A stretch of DNA of 64,000 nucleotides, taken from NCBI RefSeq assembly GCF_003790525.1, contig NZ_CP033635.1. One strand, 5' to 3'. Below the pieces are notes generated by a model. That model was not told the DNA's origin. It did no database searches and worked only from the letters and a program-made list of their open reading frames with translations. Below are positions 25,917 through 40,356 of this stretch, in pieces (position 1 is the stretch's first letter; every line of letters starts with the position of its first letter). The position numbers and the translations under genes were made by a program. The stretch comes from Escherichia coli (GTDB taxonomy: Bacteria > Pseudomonadota > Gammaproteobacteria > Enterobacterales > Enterobacteriaceae).

Positions 25917-26144
25917 CTACATATCAGTCTCTTCAAACATTTCCTGAACAGTACGGCTTATCTGTTCATTCTCATGCTTGTTGGCGTCAGTGTTGATCGC
26001 CGGCAATGTCATCATCGGTTTAACCCGGACATCAGCGCCGGGGAAAATCCGGTGAACCCTCTTGGTCAACTCGCCCAGAATGATATCTTTTGCACCGGGC
26101 AGTCCATCAAAATTCCTTTTGCCATAAACGAGTTCCACGAACAT
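25917..26144 (-). CDS. DinI-family (damage-inducible protein I / MsgA-like) protein
   Basis: 75 aa, MFVELVYGKRNFDGLPGAKDIILGELTKRVHRIFPGADVRVKP... matches DinI family pattern. Confidence 0.65.
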   Translation of the reverse strand: MFVELVYGKRNFDGLPGAKDIILGELTKRVHRIFPGADVRVKPMMTLPAINTDANKHENEQISRTVQEMFEETDM

Positions 26145-26219
26145 TGCTCATTGCCTCTTTACTGGGTGTATATACAGTATTTATACTGTGTTTTTATCCG
26201 GTATTCAAGAGAGGGCGTA

Positions 26220-26573
26220 ATGATGCCACGACGCAGCGATATTGAAATAGCCTGGTATTCTTCGATACAGCAAGAGCCGAATGGCCGGAAGACCGTCACT
26301 ACACAGCGATTTGTTCAGGGGTTGAGCAAAGTTAACTGGGAATTCTCACTCAAAGATGCTAATGCCTGGATCGAATCCAGCGTGAGCACTTTTAAATATT
26401 TATCAATGGTAGAGGGGGAAGAACGCACTTTCATGCTCTATAGCCTTGATTTATGCGATGCACATTTCCACAACCTAGTCAGGACAACCTCTTTTCTAAT
26501 AAAATGTAGATGCCTAATTTTAGGCGTCTACATAATTAATGATGATTTATTACAATTATTTTCTAGATACTAA
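26220..26573 (+). CDS. hypothetical protein
   Basis: ATG at 26220 with gagaggg RBS upstream; earlier part of the listed ORF is antisense to the DinI-like gene; 3' end runs into AT-rich DNA. Confidence 0.3.
   Translation: MMPRRSDIEIAWYSSIQQEPNGRKTVTTQRFVQGLSKVNWEFSLKDANAWIESSVSTFKYLSMVEGEERTFMLYSLDLCDAHFHNLVRTTSFLIKCRCLILGVYIINDDLLQLFSRY
26504..26533 (-). terminator. hairpin terminator downstream of the sulfatase-like gene
   Basis: 12-bp inverted repeat atgtagatgcct-aatttt-aggcgtctacat, T-rich flank on minus strand. Confidence 0.5.
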
Positions 26574-37272: not shown

Positions 37273-37818
37273 CTATTTAATACTCAGCAACTGCTCGACG
37301 GTCATATTTTTAATTGCGCCCCGGTTTATGAGAGTCCATCCCTGCTTTTCCAGATAAAAACGGAAAGTATCCAGAGTACAGACCAGTGCGCCATCAGGAA
37401 CGGTTTCGGTGAATTTGATGTAGCCGTGTTCGTCGAAGCGGATAACCAGGGTGTGGTCATCACCCGGGATTATTTTGTCAGCGGGTGTGGTGTTATTCCG
37501 GCGCAGTTCTTCCTCCATGCGGTCGAACTCGGCAATGTAGGCTTCCTTGAATGCAGCGGCTTTTTTGCCGGTGAAGCCCATCACCAGGAAAACGAAGCCG
37601 TTTTTGGTGATTTGGTAGGCATTGTAGGTATTGCCACGGTGCTCGAATTTAACCCGCGAAAAGTTGCTGGTTAAAAAGCGTTCAGAACATTCGAGGGCTT
37701 CTATTTTTTGAACAACATGGTGATGCTGCTTGCCGAAGAATTCTGCGATCGCAATAGACGTAGTGACAGCGCGACCATTTTCAATGGTTACGTCAGGGTG
37801 AGAAAGGGTAGTAGCCAT
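37273..37818 (-). CDS. Rha-family phage regulatory protein (antirepressor-like)
   Basis: start placed at MATTLSHPD (RBS gagga); N-terminal Rha motif GRAVTTSIAIAEFFGKQHHHVVQKIE; frame stays open upstream to 38115. Confidence 0.7.
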   Translation of the reverse strand: MATTLSHPDVTIENGRAVTTSIAIAEFFGKQHHHVVQKIEALECSERFLTSNFSRVKFEHRGNTYNAYQITKNGFVFLVMGFTGKKAAAFKEAYIAEFDRMEEELRRNNTTPADKIIPGDDHTLVIRFDEHGYIKFTETVPDGALVCTLDTFRFYLEKQGWTLINRGAIKNMTVEQLLSIK

Positions 37819-38298
37819 GATGGCATCCTCAAGTGTTAAGTTAATTAACTCACCACCGAGGCTTTCCACGACCATAAGGGTGGCGAGACGTACAGGGGTG
37901 GAAATACCGGTCACTCGAGAACCCGGCCAGCCTTGCAGCTGCCCTGCACGCCCCACCATTATCTGAATGTGGCTGTGCTTAACGCATAAAAAAACCGCTT
38001 CGGCGCGGTTATGCGCTCGAGTAACTTTCGGGTTTCCACGCCCGGCACCCGTTTTATGAGGTGCAGGTGCACTATAATTCCACCCGTACTGGTTTTCAAT
38101 AGCTACATTCAACATTTTCTCTTACCTTTCATCACCGAAGTGAACTTTGTTGATGCGGTGCCAGGTGCCTCCAGGTGACGTTAACCAGTTAACAATTAAC
38201 GCCGGATACAGAGAATCCACCCATAACACTGTTTTTGGTTTTAACTGTTCCGCGTGCGCTGAGCCGCATTCACCACATCACAAAATTCACTTTAAAAA

Positions 38299-38349
38299 GG
38301 GCGGCAGAGCAGTCACGGAGTAAAACTGATACCGCCACGTCACCAGAAA
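38299..38349 (-). ncRNA. dicF: DicF-like small RNA
   Basis: minus strand reads tttctggtgacgtggcggtatcagttttactccgtgactgctctgccgccc, near-identical to the remembered Qin DicF sequence (2-nt difference), followed by a T run. Confidence 0.6.
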
Positions 38350-38540: not shown

Positions 38541-38741
38541 ATGAATACAATCAAGTTTTCTTGCCCAGAATGTGGTGGCGAAGTCTTCGACACATCCTTT
38601 AAGCCGCAGGGCTCTGACAGTTTCGCGGGAGCCATCTGCAAAAATTGTGGTCACCTTGTAACTGAAGATGAGTCCTCGCAATTCGATGAGGAAATCGTTG
38701 ACAATATCTTCGGTGTAATCACCGGAGCCTTTCTGAAGTAA
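38541..38741 (+). CDS. small zinc-ribbon protein
   Basis: 66 aa with two CxxC pairs (CPECGG ... CKNCGH) and acidic tail; RBS gagagg; an overlapping minus-strand ORF (38520..38876) is a competing call. Confidence 0.4.
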   Translation: MNTIKFSCPECGGEVFDTSFKPQGSDSFAGAICKNCGHLVTEDESSQFDEEIVDNIFGVITGAFLK

Positions 38742-39060
38742 AGGCACATACCGCTTAGTTACCGCTCTGATAATTCTTACCTGTCCGGCAATGGCGCTGA
38801 TGTCAATATAAAGCGCCATTGCTGCTTCTTTGCCGATCCCGGGATGCCTTCCATTCTGATGTTTGACTTCGCCCACTGAGAAATCCTCTGTTTCCCCTTA
38901 ACGCCGGGGTAGCGGAACAAAAACCTGCTGCATAGTTAAAGTTAAACCCTGCCGTCATGTTCATACGCCTCGGGCTGGCTACTTAACCCCTGACCACTGC
39001 CTGGTAACTCGAAGTATTGCCCTGCGTTCTGTGGGGCGGGGTGGGTTGGTATGAAAGAAA

Positions 39061-39100
39061 GGATACCCATGGGTATCCAAAAAGTAAATACCCATGGGTA
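39061..39100. promoter_or_regulatory. operator palindromes downstream of the repressor gene (OL-like)
   Basis: perfect 18-bp palindrome GGATACCCATGGGTATCC and a second TACCCATGGGTA 11 bp away. Confidence 0.6.
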
Positions 39101-39144
39101 ATTTTTTTTGATGTATCTTAACTGGTGACTGGTTGTTTGGTGAG

Positions 39145-39564
39145 TTATGATGCGTTTTGTGCTTTCTTTTTACGGATTTCTTCGTAGATCATATTGTAAT
39201 ACTGTTTTTTCTCTTCAAGAGTTTTTAATAAGTTATCCGCTTCACTTTCAGGCAGTTCGTCTAAGAGATCTAAAAAAATACGTTGTCGTGGCGTTAGAAC
39301 CCTTGTTTCATAATTGGAGGCTGTGTTCGTTGATGATGAAACGATACCATCCATCCATCCCCGGGGTAACCCAAAGGACTCTTCTATAATCTCCACCATA
39401 TCATCAGCGATCCGTTTTTTTCCTTTTTTCCCCTCTGGGTACAACATTCTTGATACATAAGAAGGCTCGCGACCGATCTTTCTGGCCACGTTAACCGCTT
39501 TACCATCGCATTTCTCATCACGAATTTTGATGAGTTGTTGTCGTCTAAATTCATATTTGTCCAT
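39145..39564 (-). CDS. prophage repressor (HTH, RacR/DicA-like position)
   Basis: start at MDKYEFRRQQL (listed ORF starts further upstream at a TTG inside the operator region); divergent from the cro-like gene. Confidence 0.7.
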   Translation of the reverse strand: MDKYEFRRQQLIKIRDEKCDGKAVNVARKIGREPSYVSRMLYPEGKKGKKRIADDMVEIIEESFGLPRGWMDGIVSSSTNTASNYETRVLTPRQRIFLDLLDELPESEADNLLKTLEEKKQYYNMIYEEIRKKKAQNAS

Positions 39565-39583
39565 AGGTAAATAATAGATGCGA

Positions 39584-39638
39584 TTACCGCAAGGTAAACA
39601 ACCCAAGGGTATTGACTTTTGTTTACCTGTGGGTATTC
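39584..39638. promoter_or_regulatory. divergent promoter/operator region between repressor and cro-like gene
   Basis: three related palindromic sites TTACCgcaaGGTAA, ACCCaaGGGT, TACCtgtgGGTA sharing half-sites with the sites at 39061-39100. Confidence 0.55.
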
Positions 39639-39665
39639 TTTTGCTGTGTTTACTAAGGAGTAGCT

Positions 39666-39947
39666 ATGGAAGAATTAAGAATATTTCTCAATTCTCTTTC
39701 GTCAGATGAACAGCGTATGTTTGCATGTGAGTGTGGTACTAGCATCGGTTATCTAAGAAAGGCATTGAGTAAAGGTCAAATGTTAGGGGCATCGTTATGT
39801 GTCCTTATTGAGCGAGCCAGTAATGGTGAAGTTACACGTCAGCAACTAAGGCCTTTTGATTGGATGAATATTTGGCCCGAGCTGGAAGATACCAAAACGT
39901 TAACACAACCACTTACTAGGAGCTTGATTCATGAAAATCAAGCATGA
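39666..39947 (+). CDS. Cro-like transcriptional regulator (YdaS family)
   Basis: 93 aa, RBS aaggag, divergent from repressor, similar to Rac YdaS. Confidence 0.7.
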   Translation: MEELRIFLNSLSSDEQRMFACECGTSIGYLRKALSKGQMLGASLCVLIERASNGEVTRQQLRPFDWMNIWPELEDTKTLTQPLTRSLIHENQA

Positions 39948-40356
39948 ACACATCCGCATGGCGATGAATGCCTGGGCGCGTCCTGATGGCGAAAAAGTTC
40001 CGGCAGCTGAAATAACCCGGGCTTATTTTGAGCTGGGTATGACGTTCCCGGAACTGTATGACGACAGCCATCCCGAAGCCCTGGCCCGTAATACCCAGAA
40101 AATTTTCCGCTGGGTGGAGAAAGACACCCCTGATGCGGTTGTAAAAATTCAGGCGTTACTACCAGCGATCGAAAAGGCAATGCCGCCTTTGCTGGTGGCC
40201 AGAATGCGTAGCCACAGCTCAGCCTATTTCAGGGAGCTGCTGGAGACACGAGAACGGCTGGTGAGAGACGCTGATGATTTTATCGCAGTGGCAATCGCCG
40301 GTTTCAATCAGATGAATCGTGGTGGCCCGGCGGGTAATGCTGTGGTGATGCACTGA
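39931..40356 (+). CDS. YdaT-like regulatory protein (CII-like position)
   Basis: 141 aa ORF overlapping the cro-like stop; arrangement as in Rac ydaS-ydaT. Confidence 0.6.
   Translation: MKIKHEHIRMAMNAWARPDGEKVPAAEITRAYFELGMTFPELYDDSHPEALARNTQKIFRWVEKDTPDAVVKIQALLPAIEKAMPPLLVARMRSHSSAYFRELLETRERLVRDADDFIAVAIAGFNQMNRGGPAGNAVVMH

What the first reader, a model, noticed from the sequence alone, without database searches (positions are those of the whole stretch)
39061..39638. Five palindromic operator-like sites flanking the repressor gene
Perfect palindromes GGATACCCATGGGTATCC (39061-39078) and TACCCATGGGTA (39089-39100) lie just 3' of the repressor gene, and three related sites (TTACCgcaaGGTAA, ACCCaaGGGT, TACCtgtgGGTA) lie in the divergent repressor/cro intergenic region. 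They share TACCC / GGGTA half-sites, consistent with one repressor controlling both a leftward promoter (toward DicF and Rha) and the divergent pair.
Basis: seen in the sequence. Interest (0 to 1): 0.4.

Follow-up and report, generated by a model that had tools for sequence, protein, structure and literature searches.

The report
Prophage repressor operator sites, left and right
The five palindromes are real and are almost certainly the left and right operators of a lambda-like E. coli prophage switch, which is a textbook arrangement, though for a repressor family whose DNA sites I could not find described.

Summary
TACC-N4-GGTA occurs four times in the 64-kb window against 0.34 expected, and all four lie in 39064-39635. 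A fifth, one-mismatch site (AACCCAAGGGTA) lies among them.

The sites flank a 139-aa repressor gene (39564..39145, minus strand), which has an HTH N-terminal domain and no S24 cleavage domain.
- Three sites (OR1-3) overlap the divergent promoters pR and pRM. The pRM geometry predicts a leaderless repressor mRNA.
- Two sites (OL1/OL2) overlap a leftward promoter-like element pointing toward DicF and Rha.

In 36 non-redundant related loci from at least 7 genera, including phage mEp043, the layout is the same. OR sites sit about -66, -41 and -26 from the repressor ATG. An OL pair 25-26 bp apart lies 50-1950 bp past the stop codon.

Prophages with the same flanks but another DNA-binding domain (CP-933P, Tritos) carry different repeats at both positions.

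There are four nuances:
- the invariant core is TACC/GGTA;
- the 18-bp palindrome is a minority variant;
- OR2 is a weak half-conserved site;
- the OL pair also folds into a terminator-like hairpin.

This is an ordinary lambdoid immunity region and a new member of a known kind. Binding itself is inferred, not shown.

The parts
39053..39918 (.). Exchangeable immunity cassette (pL/OL, repressor, OR, cro)
   Evidence: Homology to CP-933P (L085) ends at 39052 and resumes at 39919. Tritos and vB_EcoS-673R7 give the same right edge and a left edge at 39046-39051. Phage hits stop at about 39060.
39061..39078 (.). OL1: core TACCCATGGGTA (39064-39075) inside the 18-bp perfect palindrome; overlaps the spacer and -10 of pL
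   Evidence: In 10 diverse loci, 10/10 have perfect outer bases and 9/10 a YRYR centre. The GG..CC extension is not conserved.
39089..39100 (.). OL2: TACCCATGGGTA, 25 bp from OL1, abutting the -35 of pL
   Evidence: An OL pair 25-26 bp apart occurs in 10/10 loci and in 24/24 further loci that have enough downstream DNA.
39060..39088 (-). Candidate leftward promoter pL: -35 TTTACT (39088..39083), 17-nt spacer, -10 TATCCT (39065..39060); predicted start near 39052
   Evidence: Read from the sequence. It scores 8/12, so the scan did not list it. The same GGTA+TTGACn ... GG+TATAtT geometry is seen in 10 loci. Its position matches the experimentally active PL933P.
39055..39109 (.). Terminator-like hairpin formed by OL2 pairing with OL1, flanked by AAGAAAGG and T8
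   Evidence: One search reports a minus-strand stem of 16 pairs with tail TCCTTTCTTT. The minus-strand fold is -24.9 kcal/mol, z -3.5. The plus-strand fold has a 13-bp stem followed by AUUUUUUUU, z -3.5. Repeat I3.
39145..39564 (-). Repressor gene, 139 aa: N-terminal HTH domain (1-72), linker, DicA/PaaR2-like C-terminal helices; no S24 peptidase domain
   Evidence: (phrog_5736).
39571..39598 (-). pRM: -35 TTTACC (39598..39593), 16-nt spacer, -10 TATTAT (39576..39571); the -10 ends 6 nt before the ATG, so the mRNA is predicted to be leaderless
   Evidence: The -10 ends 6-7 nt (6 in most) before the ATG in 8 of the 10 loci. L004 and L088 do not fit as annotated. There is no obvious Shine-Dalgarno by eye. 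paaR2 was shown to be leaderless in CP-933P.
39585..39596 (.). OR3: TACCGCAAGGTA, overlapping the pRM -35 and spacer
   Evidence: In 10 loci, 9/10 have perfect outer bases but 0/10 a YRYR centre. It always lies 15 bp from OR2.
39600..39611 (.). OR2: AACCCAAGGGTA, a weak site with one conserved half, centred 41.5 bp upstream of the repressor ATG and abutting the pR -35
   Evidence: The TACC half is perfect in 10/10 loci. The other half averages 1.5 mismatches.
39624..39635 (.). OR1: TACCTGTGGGTA, over the pR spacer and -10
   Evidence: 10/10 perfect outer bases and 10/10 YRYR centres.
39612..39639 (+). pR: TTGACT-16-TATTCT, reading into cro
39666..39947 (+). cro-like gene (93 aa, weak YdaS-type HTH)
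   Evidence: It is 45-73% identical to the cro of every TACC-type locus, but only 32% to CP-933P YdaS and 27% to Tritos Cro.
39924..39941 (.). Perfect YdaT operator OM (TTGATTCATGAAAATCAA) at the right edge of the cassette
   Evidence: The site is defined by footprinting in PMC9986795.
39931..40356 (+). ydaT (CII equivalent)
   Evidence: 84% identical to CP-933P YdaT. PDB 8bt1 and 3c4r match. Pfam YdaT_toxin.

Best explanation
The region 39053-39918 is the immunity cassette of a lambdoid (Rac/CP-933P-like) E. coli prophage inserted next to ompW. The five sites are 12-14-bp dyad-symmetric operators with consensus wTACC-YRYR-GGTAw. They are recognised by the HTH N-terminal domain of the 139-aa repressor and very probably also by the co-inherited Cro.

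Inferred mechanism:
- Repressor dimers fill OR1 and, cooperatively, the weak OR2 24 bp away. This shuts pR (cro, ydaT, replication genes).
- Repressor at OR2, centred 41.5 bp upstream of the predicted leaderless pRM start, is placed to stimulate pRM.
- At high concentration OR3, which contains the pRM -35, is filled and the repressor limits its own synthesis.
- The OL1/OL2 pair (25 bp apart) covers the -35, spacer and -10 of pL. It silences the left operon (DicF, isrK/C4, Ash/Rha, kil, exonuclease, xis, int).
- The two pairs, 560 bp apart, could be bridged by a repressor oligomer.

Because the repressor has no S24 domain, induction presumably needs an antirepressor rather than RecA-stimulated cleavage.

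Shown here: the sites, their promoter overlaps, their conservation and their co-variation with the DNA-binding domain. Inferred: binding, order of filling, activation, looping and the mode of induction.
For: **Statistics.** 4 TACC-N4-GGTA sites against 0.34 expected, all within 580 bp.

**Promoter overlap.** pR and pRM are found by the scan. pL is read from the sequence and is an inverted copy of pR/OR1-OR2.

**Repressor identity.**
- phrog_5736 'transcriptional regulator', E 5e-70.
- The N-terminal 86 aa are 65% identical to the annotated cI of phage mEp043.
- They are 70-85% identical to many S24 'LexA family' phage repressors.
- The AF2 model (pLDDT 84) has an HTH at residues 23-40, and its best PDB match is the SPC32H Rep repressor 5d50.
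- The C-terminus matches DicA and PaaR2.

**Comparative evidence, 10 loci from E. coli phages, Salmonella, Pantoea, Yersinia, Serratia, Edwardsiella and a metagenome.**
- OR1, OR2 and OR3 lie near -66, -41 and -26 from the ATG.
- The OL pair is 25-26 bp apart.
- 40 of the 42 perfect sites in 50 kb are at these five positions.

**26 further non-redundant IMG/VR loci.** The same layout holds, with no perfect site anywhere else in up to 7.2 kb each.

**Position of the OL pair.** It lies 50 to 1950 bp past the repressor stop, beyond inserted cargo genes, so it tracks pL and not the end of the repressor gene.

**Within-clade variation in 80 near-identical copies.** Outer operator positions vary at 3 of 40. 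Central positions vary at 13 of 20. Other non-coding positions vary at 59 of 236. Fisher p = 0.013 (outer vs other non-coding) and 5e-6 (outer vs centre).

**Centre composition.** 27/30 YRYR centres at OR1, OL1 and OL2 against 0/10 at OR3.

**Co-variation.** Tritos and CP-933P share the flanks but have other DNA-binding domains, and they carry other repeats at both OL and OR.

**Cro.** It is orthologous in all TACC-type loci.

**Experimental precedent.** PRM933P, PR933P and PL933P are regulated by PaaR2 and YdaS, paaR2 is leaderless and PaaR2 is octameric (PMC8630535).
Against: - No binding or expression data exist for this repressor or these sites.
- pL matches consensus at only 8 of 12 positions and was not listed by the promoter scan.
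- The OL pair also has the anatomy of an intrinsic terminator on both strands.
- OR2 and OR3 are only 15 bp centre to centre, so simultaneous occupancy is uncertain.
- Co-variation cannot tell repressor binding from Cro binding, because both proteins travel with the sites.
- The promoter scan as a whole found no more promoter-like sites than shuffles do (2 against 2.2).
- No antirepressor was identified.
Confidence: 0.87

Rival explanations
1. The two palindromes at 39061-39100 are primarily a (bidirectional) intrinsic terminator that ends the repressor transcript, and their resemblance to the OR sites is secondary.
For: - The scan lists minus-strand hairpins followed by TCCTTTCTTT.
- The two sites pair into a 16-bp stem: -24.9 kcal/mol for the 111-nt minus-strand stretch, z -3.5.
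- On the plus strand a 13-bp stem is followed by AUUUUUUUU.
- An A-rich tract on one side and a T-rich tract on the other is the usual look of bidirectional terminators (I3).
- No other terminator-like element lies between the repressor stop and pL, and pRM read-through into the left operon would have to be stopped somewhere.
Against: - The same pair, with the same 25-26-bp spacing and the same overlap with -35 and -10 hexamers, lies up to 1.9 kb downstream of the repressor stop in relatives, after other genes. mEp043 has a separate canonical terminator-like hairpin upstream of its pair (by eye).
- U-rich tails are not conserved in those loci.
- The hairpin is an automatic by-product of two similar palindromes.
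- The core is identical to the OR sites, which lie in non-transcribed promoter DNA.
Confidence: 0.05
2. Dual role: the OL pair is an operator in DNA and also a terminator or roadblock in RNA for pRM read-through and for convergent plus-strand transcripts. This would apply to this compact variant, where only 45 bp separate the repressor stop from OL2.
For: As for the terminator rival, together with all the operator evidence. A U-rich tail is retained in the majority variant of 80 close copies: TCCTTCTTTTC on the minus strand and at least 5 T on the plus strand.
Against: - The T8 run is shortened in most close relatives (positions 39102 and 39107-39109 vary).
- There are no transcript-end data.
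- Termination efficiency of a 13-16-bp AT-rich-ended stem is not predictable from sequence alone.
Confidence: 0.3
3. Only some of the five sites are functional. OR2 (AACCCAAGGGTA) and/or OR3 (TACCGCAAGGTA) are promoter-sequence coincidences rather than operators, or they are bound by Cro only.
For: - OR2 has one degenerate half in every locus (mean 1.5 mismatches).
- Its conserved CAATACCC could simply reflect the pR -35 (TTGAC) next to it.
- The left half of OR3 is the pRM -35 itself.
- OR3 centres are never YRYR.
- 16 of 80 close copies carry TACT in OR3.
- The 15-bp OR2-OR3 spacing is tight.
Against: - The right half of OR3 (GGTA) lies in the pRM spacer, where a promoter needs no specific sequence. 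It is nevertheless perfect in 9/10 diverse loci and 26/26 further loci.
- The TACC half of OR2 is perfect in 10/10, and the whole site has at most 1 mismatch in 20/26 further loci, always 24-25 bp from OR1, mirroring the OL1-OL2 spacing.
Confidence: 0.12
4. The palindromes are chance or restriction-site-like features (both OL cores contain the NcoI site CCATGG) with no regulatory role.
For: Short palindromes are common. The OL cores contain CCATGG.
Against: - 4 observed against 0.34 expected, and all four clustered.
- Central bases, including the CCATGG, vary freely among relatives while TACC/GGTA stay fixed.
- The layout is conserved in 36 loci.
Confidence: 0.01

Closest known systems
Bacteriophage lambda CI/Cro switch with OR1-3, OL1-3, pR, pRM and pL (textbook; Ptashne)
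   Same: - The repressor and cro genes are divergent.
- A tripartite OR overlaps back-to-back pR and pRM, with a strong promoter-distal pair about 24 bp apart.
- A second operator cluster overlaps pL on the far side of the repressor gene.
- The repressor mRNA is leaderless.
- The site next to the pRM -35 is centred about 42 bp upstream of the start (lambda OR2 at -42 is from my own knowledge; here it is -41.5).
   Different: - The operators are 12-14 bp (wTACC-N4-GGTAw), not 17 bp.
- OR2-OR3 spacing is 15 bp.
- Two OL sites are recognisable, not three.
- The repressor has no S24 autocleavage domain.
- CII is replaced by YdaT.
- There is no rexAB and no N gene in the window.
CP-933P immunity region of E. 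coli O157:H7: PaaR2 / YdaS / YdaT with PRM933P, PR933P, PL933P (Jurenas et al., mBio 2021, PMC8630535; Prolic-Kalinsek et al. 2023, PMC9986795)
   Same: - Both flanks are the same: 96.6% identity up to 39052 and 82.7% from 39919.
- YdaT is 84% identical.
- The window carries the footprinted YdaT OM motif TTGATTN6AATCAA as a perfect match, at the same place, the end of the cro/ydaS gene.
- The repressor is short with a PaaR2/DicA-like C-terminal domain.
- The same leaderless pRM geometry is present.
- PL lies at the equivalent position.
   Different: - The cassette between the flanks is a different allele. The repressor is only 23% identical to PaaR2 and Cro 32% to YdaS.
- The operators are unrelated (GTTTAGTAA-type repeats in CP-933P; no TACC-N4-GGTA there).
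- There is no paaA2-parE2 toxin-antitoxin cargo between the repressor and PL.
cI / operators of coliphage mEp043 (PV340537, NC_019706) and S24-type 'LexA family' prophage repressors of Salmonella, Pantoea, Klebsiella, Edwardsiella
   Same: [quoted passage not shown]
- The five-site TACC-N4-GGTA layout and spacings are identical.
- Cro is orthologous.
   Different: - Their C-terminal domain is an S24 peptidase, so they are presumably RecA-cleavable. The window's is a short helical DicA/PaaR2-like domain.
- mEp043 has N downstream of pL and a cargo gene between cI and OL.
- I found no published description of the mEp043 operators.
Short non-cleavable prophage repressors inactivated by antirepressors: Gifsy GfoR/GtgR, DicA, RacR (Lemire et al. 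2011, PMC3121763); SPC32H Rep-Ant (PDB 5d50)
   Same: - The size is about 136-139 aa, with no Ala-Gly / Ser-Lys cleavage module.
- The C-terminus matches the DicA model.
- The best structural match is Rep of the Rep-Ant complex.
   Different: - No cognate antirepressor or LexA-controlled module was found in the part of the prophage in the window.
- Sequence similarity to these proteins is weak. The DicA hit scores 24 bits against a cut-off of 101.

Membership tests
Lambdoid immunity region (CI/Cro-type switch with OR and OL) | Divergent repressor and cro genes separated by a short region holding back-to-back promoters | tested here: met
   ORFs at 39564..39145 (-) and 39666-39947 (+). pR and pRM are both found by the scan.
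Lambdoid immunity region (CI/Cro-type switch with OR and OL) | Several related dyad-symmetric sites in OR that overlap pR and pRM | tested here: met
   Three sites at 39585-96, 39600-11 and 39624-35. Positions are conserved in 36 loci.
Lambdoid immunity region (CI/Cro-type switch with OR and OL) | A second cluster of the same sites (OL) overlapping a leftward promoter beyond the repressor gene | tested here: met
   OL1 and OL2 at 39064-75 and 39089-100 overlap TTTACT-17-TATCCT. The same geometry occurs in 10 loci. Promoter activity itself was not tested.
Lambdoid immunity region (CI/Cro-type switch with OR and OL) | Operators co-vary with the repressor's DNA-binding domain (immunity specificity) | tested here: met
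   With the same flanks and a different DNA-binding domain, different repeats appear at both OL and OR (Tritos; CP-933P). With the same domain, the sites are the same regardless of C-terminal domain.
Lambdoid immunity region (CI/Cro-type switch with OR and OL) | Repressor (and Cro) physically bind the sites and repress the promoters | not testable with these tools
   Needs EMSA or footprinting and reporter fusions. Shown only for the CP-933P allele.
LexA/CI S24 family of self-cleaving repressors | C-terminal peptidase S24 domain with cleavage site | tested here: not met
   No Pfam hit at E<=0.01. The protein ends at 139 aa, where the S24 relatives continue.
PaaR2-YdaS-YdaT (CP-933P-type) switch | Repressor homologous to PaaR2 | tested here: inconclusive
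   23% identity over 90 aa, pairwise E 9e-9. The domain order is the same, but the DNA-binding domain clearly differs.
PaaR2-YdaS-YdaT (CP-933P-type) switch | YdaT (CII equivalent) downstream of cro, with its TTGATTN6AATCAA operator | tested here: met
   84% identity. PDB 8bt1 matches. A perfect site lies at 39924-39941.
PaaR2-YdaS-YdaT (CP-933P-type) switch | paaA2-parE2 toxin-antitoxin genes co-transcribed with the repressor | tested here: not met
   Only 45 bp separate the repressor stop (39145) from OL2 (39100), and no ORF fits there.
PaaR2-YdaS-YdaT (CP-933P-type) switch | GTTTAGTAA-type repeats as operators | tested here: not met
   The window uses TACC-N4-GGTA. CP-933P has none of these in OR or OL.
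Leaderless repressor mRNA (as lambda cI, paaR2) | Transcript starts at or next to the A of the ATG; no Shine-Dalgarno | tested here: inconclusive
   The -10 hexamer ends 6 nt before the ATG in the window. It ends 6-7 nt (6 in most) before it in 8 of the 10 loci compared. L004 and L088 do not fit as annotated. No obvious Shine-Dalgarno is seen by eye. The 5' end was not mapped.
Intrinsic (rho-independent) terminator | Stable hairpin followed by a U tract | tested here: met
   Present on both strands in the window.
Intrinsic (rho-independent) terminator | Position at a gene end and U tract conserved in relatives | tested here: not met
   The pair lies 50-1950 bp from the repressor stop. Tails such as CACTAGCC or ATTACAACC follow it in relatives.

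The most novel reading that the evidence does not exclude
The window's short repressor has no cleavage domain, yet it carries the same recognition region and faces the same operator core as SOS-cleavable CI repressors of infectious phages such as mEp043. It also matches those of prophages in at least seven enterobacterial genera. If it binds their operators, this widespread E. coli prophage (at least 80% of the 1,051-bp query spanning the cassette is present in 821 of 5,426 complete genomes) would give SOS-proof superinfection immunity against a cross-genus phage group. That one specificity group would be served by at least four unrelated C-terminal domains. In addition, in this compact allele the OL operator pair may double as a bidirectional terminator, coupling operator DNA and terminator RNA in one 50-bp element.
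Probability: 0.35. Interest if true: 0.5.

Novelty: new member of a known kind. Interest (0 to 1): 0.28.

Why it matters
It assigns a function and a DNA motif (wTACC-YRYR-GGTAw) to a gene that RefSeq mostly calls 'hypothetical protein'. At least 80% of the 1,051-bp query spanning the cassette is present in about 15% of complete E. coli genomes, and related cassettes occur in prophages of Salmonella, Klebsiella, Yersinia, Serratia, Edwardsiella and Pantoea.

It defines the exact limits of an exchangeable immunity module, from the pL start to the YdaT operator. This is a clean example of modular exchange beside the experimentally studied CP-933P allele.

It predicts which prophages and phages should be homoimmune. 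It also predicts that the left operon, carrying DicF, isrK/C4 and an Ash/Rha regulator, is under this repressor.

None of this would surprise a phage specialist. It is the lambda design with new parts.

Tried and rejected
- **Pfam on the repressor:** no family.
- **PDB sequence search:** only noise, ADAR Z-alpha at E about 0.08. The HTH assignment therefore rests on homology to annotated cI genes and on the AF2 model.
- **First viral-contig scan:** it returned only 99-100% identical copies. These were useless for distant comparison, so I used them only for within-clade variation. A second scan with an N-terminal-domain alignment gave 26 new non-redundant loci.
- **Literature:** there are no papers on mEp043 operators, and none containing the operator strings in a regulatory context. 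Only open-access PMC and bioRxiv are covered.
- **Search for a LexA-controlled antirepressor module, as in Gifsy phages:** the only good LexA boxes (26160-26203) lie beyond tonB, yciABC and ompW, outside this prophage. CTGT-N8-ACAG gave two chance-level hits.
- **Chance or NcoI-site reading:** rejected on statistics and because the centres vary.
- **Terminator-only reading:** rejected because the pair tracks pL and not the repressor stop.
- **A possible sixth site at the repressor start** (TTTACCTATGGA, 39560-39571, D1): judged coincidental because it is absent from most related loci.
- **A third OL site:** none was recognisable in the window.
Full report
**1. Observation**

- GGATACCCATGGGTATCC at 39061-39078
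- TACCCATGGGTA at 39089-39100
- TTACCGCAAGGTAA at 39584-39597
- ACCCAAGGGT at 39601-39610
- TACCTGTGGGTA at 39624-39635

The pattern TACCNNNNGGTA occurs four times in the 64-kb window, and all four are inside the finding. Shuffles give 0.34 +/- 0.57, and none of 100 reached four. Allowing two mismatches to TACCCATGGGTA adds AACCCAAGGGTA at 39600-39611 and nothing elsewhere.

The repeat finder independently shows that the left stretch (39058-39115) is an inverted, 75-80% matching copy of the right stretch (39585-39641). The similarity extends beyond the palindromes into the promoter hexamers.

**2. Genes**

The minus-strand ORF 39564..39145 encodes 139 aa starting MDKYEF. That N-terminus is shared by all homologues and is the RefSeq gene model.

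- Pfam gives nothing for it. PHROGs gives phrog_5736 'transcriptional regulator' at E 5e-70.
- Residues 1-86 are 65% identical to the annotated cI of coliphage mEp043.
- They are 70-85% identical to the N-terminal domains of many 221-242-aa S24 'LexA family' prophage repressors.
- The C-terminal 55 residues instead match the end of DicA (NCBIfam, E 2.5e-5, below cut-off), PaaR2 of CP-933P (23% identity, E 9e-9) and the Tritos CI.
- An AlphaFold model (pLDDT 84) has helices at 23-30 and 34-40 (the HTH), a disordered linker at 77-86 and a long C-terminal helix.
- Its best PDB match is Rep of the Salmonella phage SPC32H Rep-Ant complex, 5d50 (E 7e-4). Xre-type HTH proteins follow.

There is no S24 domain. 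Divergently lie a 93-aa Cro-like gene (39666-39947; weak YdaS hit, phrog_35) and ydaT (39931-40356), which is 84% identical to the crystallised CP-933P YdaT.

**3. Promoters**

- **pR and pRM.** The scan finds exactly two promoter-like sites in 38700-39800. They are pR (TTGACT-16-TATTCT, 39612-39639) and pRM (TTTACC-16-TATTAT, 39598..39571).
- **Operator overlap on the right.** OR1 covers the pR spacer and -10. OR2 abuts the pR -35 and is centred 41.5 bp upstream of the repressor ATG. The left half of OR3 is the pRM -35.
- **Leaderless mRNA.** The pRM -10 ends six bases before the ATG and there is no Shine-Dalgarno sequence, so a leaderless mRNA is predicted. This was shown for lambda cI and, by 5'-RACE and mass measurement, for paaR2.
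- **pL.** On the minus strand the left pair overlaps TTTACT (39088..39083), a 17-nt spacer and TATCCT (39065..39060). OL2 abuts the -35 and OL1 lies over the spacer and -10. This scores 8/12, below the scan's reporting threshold, so it rests on my reading and on comparison.
- **What pL would transcribe.** A start about 7 nt downstream (near 39052) points toward DicF (38348..38299), isrK, C4 and the Ash/Rha gene.

**4. Comparison with relatives**

I fetched ten diverse loci whose repressors share the N-terminal domain. They are mEp043, phage CharmingMan, Salmonella (two types), Pantoea, Yersinia, Serratia, Edwardsiella and a metagenome contig, plus a truncated Klebsiella copy.

Layout:
- In every one, sites lie near -66, -41 and -26 from the repressor ATG.
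- A pair 25-26 bp apart lies downstream.
- 40 of the 42 perfect TACC-N4-GGTA sites in 50.2 kb are at these five positions.
- Spacings are fixed: OR1-OR2 24-25 bp, OR2-OR3 15 bp, OL2-OL1 25-26 bp.

Quality of each site:

| Site | Perfect outer bases | YRYR centre |
|---|---|---|
| OR1 | 10/10 | 10/10 |
| OL1 | 10/10 | 9/10 |
| OL2 | 10/10 | 8/10 |
| OR3 | 9/10 | 0/10 |
| OR2 | TACC half 10/10; other half mean 1.5 mismatches | 7/10 |

- The strong sites together have 27/30 alternating pyrimidine-purine centres. Fisher p against OR3 is 3e-7.
- The symmetrised half-site is w-T-A-C-C-Y-R.
- The promoter overlaps are conserved too. These are pRM -35 TTTACC inside OR3, GGGTA-TTGAC at pR and pL, and GG-TATAtT at pL. 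A -10 ends 6-7 nt before the ATG in eight of the ten loci; L004 and L088 do not fit as annotated.

A second IMG/VR scan gave 26 further non-redundant loci, all with S24-type repressors:
- OR1 and OR3 are perfect in 26/26.
- OR2 has at most 1 mismatch in 20/26.
- An OL pair is present in 24/24 loci with enough downstream DNA.
- There is not one additional perfect site in up to 7.2 kb per locus.

**5. The OL pair is not simply the end of the repressor gene**

Its distance from the repressor stop ranges from 50 bp (window) to about 1950 bp (Yersinia). Unrelated cargo lies in between, such as ParE-type toxin genes, a HipA-like gene, Bro-N and P63C. The pair travels with the promoter-like hexamers, not with the stop codon.

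**6. Co-variation**

Phage Tritos and prophage CP-933P share the window's flanks:
- On the left, homology to CP-933P runs up to 39052 at 96.6% identity. For Tritos it ends at 39046.
- On the right, it resumes at 39919.
- The primers of the CP-933P study match the window's flanks.
- Between these points the repressor N-terminal domain and Cro are different.

Tritos has four 17-bp sites of the type ATGTACT-N3-AGTACAT. Two are in OR and two in OL, each pair 24 bp apart. It has no TACC-N4-GGTA there. CP-933P uses GTTTAGTAA-type repeats at OR and at PL933P and has no TACC sites.

So both operator clusters change together with the DNA-binding domain. They stay the same when only the C-terminal domain changes.

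The cassette's left edge coincides with the predicted pL start. Its right edge coincides with the YdaT operator OM, TTGATTCATGAAAATCAA at 39924-39941.

**7. Variation among 80 near-identical copies (IMG/VR)**

- Outer operator positions are polymorphic at 3 of 40.
- Central positions are polymorphic at 13 of 20.
- Other non-coding positions are polymorphic at 59 of 236.
- Fisher p is 0.013 (outer vs other non-coding) and 5e-6 (outer vs centre).

The GG..CC extension that creates the 18-bp perfect palindrome is present in only a few copies. OR3 carries TACT in 16 copies, consistent with a weak site.

**8. Terminator question**

Because OL1 and OL2 are near-identical palindromes, any transcript crossing them folds into a long hairpin.
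- On the minus strand there are 16 pairs. The fold of the 111-nt stretch is -24.9 kcal/mol (z -3.5), and the hairpin is followed by UCCUUUCUUUC.
- On the plus strand there are 13 pairs followed by AUUUUUUUU (z -3.5).

Relatives form the same hairpin but without conserved U tracts.

I therefore treat termination as a possible secondary role in this compact allele, at about 0.3. Only 45 bp separate the repressor stop from OL2, and pRM read-through would otherwise enter the left operon. I do not treat it as the explanation of the sites.

**9. Mechanism (inferred by analogy, not shown)**

- The repressor fills OR1 and OR2 and the OL pair, and this silences pR and pL.
- The OR2 position suggests stimulation of pRM.
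- OR3 occupancy would auto-repress.
- Cro, which is orthologous in all TACC-type loci, presumably uses the same sites.
- PaaR2 is octameric, so OL-OR bridging over 560 bp is plausible.
- Without an S24 domain, induction probably needs an antirepressor, as for Gifsy GfoR/GtgR, DicA and RacR (PMC3121763). I did not find one. The only good LexA boxes in the window lie outside the prophage.

**10. Context and novelty**

The element is a lambdoid prophage next to ompW. In the best-matching genome the gene order is int, xis, exonuclease, kil, Rha, then the immunity region, replication genes, Q, lysis and terminase. At least 80% of the 1,051-bp query spanning the cassette is present in 821 of 5,426 complete E. 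coli genomes, and the repressor is usually annotated 'hypothetical protein'.

I found no description of these operators or of the mEp043 operators in the searchable literature.

The design is textbook lambda and is closely paralleled by the experimentally studied CP-933P allele. This is therefore a new member of a known kind. It is solidly supported at the sequence level and of modest interest.

Noticed in passing
window 37273-38348 (minus strand): Three Rfam sRNAs in a row lie downstream of pL: DicF (38348..38299), isrK (38064..37988) and C4 antisense RNA (37963..37876). They overlap or lead into a 280-aa Ash + Rha protein (38115..37273), parts of which match anti-repressor PHROGs. This is a P1 immI / Gifsy-1 isrK-like module inside the repressor-controlled left operon, and a candidate for the missing antirepressor circuit.
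   Followed up: partly
window 39924-39941: There is a perfect copy of the footprinted YdaT operator OM (TTGATTCATGAAAATCAA). It spans the cro stop region and the ydaT start codon, exactly where homology to CP-933P and Tritos resumes.
   Followed up: yes
window 26160-26203: Two adjacent LexA-box-like sites lie here, one a perfect match to TACTGTATATNNNNNCAG. They sit between a DinI-like gene (25917..26144, minus) and a divergent 117-aa ORF of unknown function (26220-26573; phrog_3893). They lie beyond tonB, yciABC and ompW, outside this prophage, next to an IS3-type transposase fragment and a tail-fibre-like ORF. This could be an SOS-controlled module of a neighbouring phage remnant.
   Followed up: partly
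window 38541-38741 (+): A 66-aa zinc-ribbon gene (RefSeq 'ECs_2282 family putative zinc-binding protein') is convergent with pL, so pL transcripts run antisense to it. It is also present in CP-933P.
   Followed up: no
L003 about 2551-2577 (mEp043); also L088 and, degenerate, L086/L090: A wider-spaced palindrome TTACCTG-N10-CAGGTAA lies about 20 bp upstream of OL2 in several relatives. It may be a third, differently spaced OL site or a site for another factor. It is absent from the window.
   Followed up: no
L086 3233-3798; L092 3253-4856; L090 3083-4626; L091 3148-4122; L085 2024-2495: The gap between the repressor gene and the OL pair is a cargo slot. It holds ParE-type toxin-antitoxin pairs, a HipA-like gene, Bro-N and P63C proteins in different relatives, like rexAB in lambda. 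The window's allele is the empty version.
   Followed up: partly
proteins P0016, P0019: Some database copies of the repressor begin in another frame (MNLDDSNSSKFV..., equal to the window's 39554..39384 alternative ORF) and rejoin the normal frame mid-protein. These are frameshifted or miscalled alleles of the repressor in some E. coli genomes.
   Followed up: no
window 39102-39116: The A/T run just upstream of OL2 (T8 on the plus strand) is a hotspot of length and base variation among 80 near-identical copies. It sits where an UP-like element of pL, or the U tract of a plus-strand terminator, would be.
   Followed up: no
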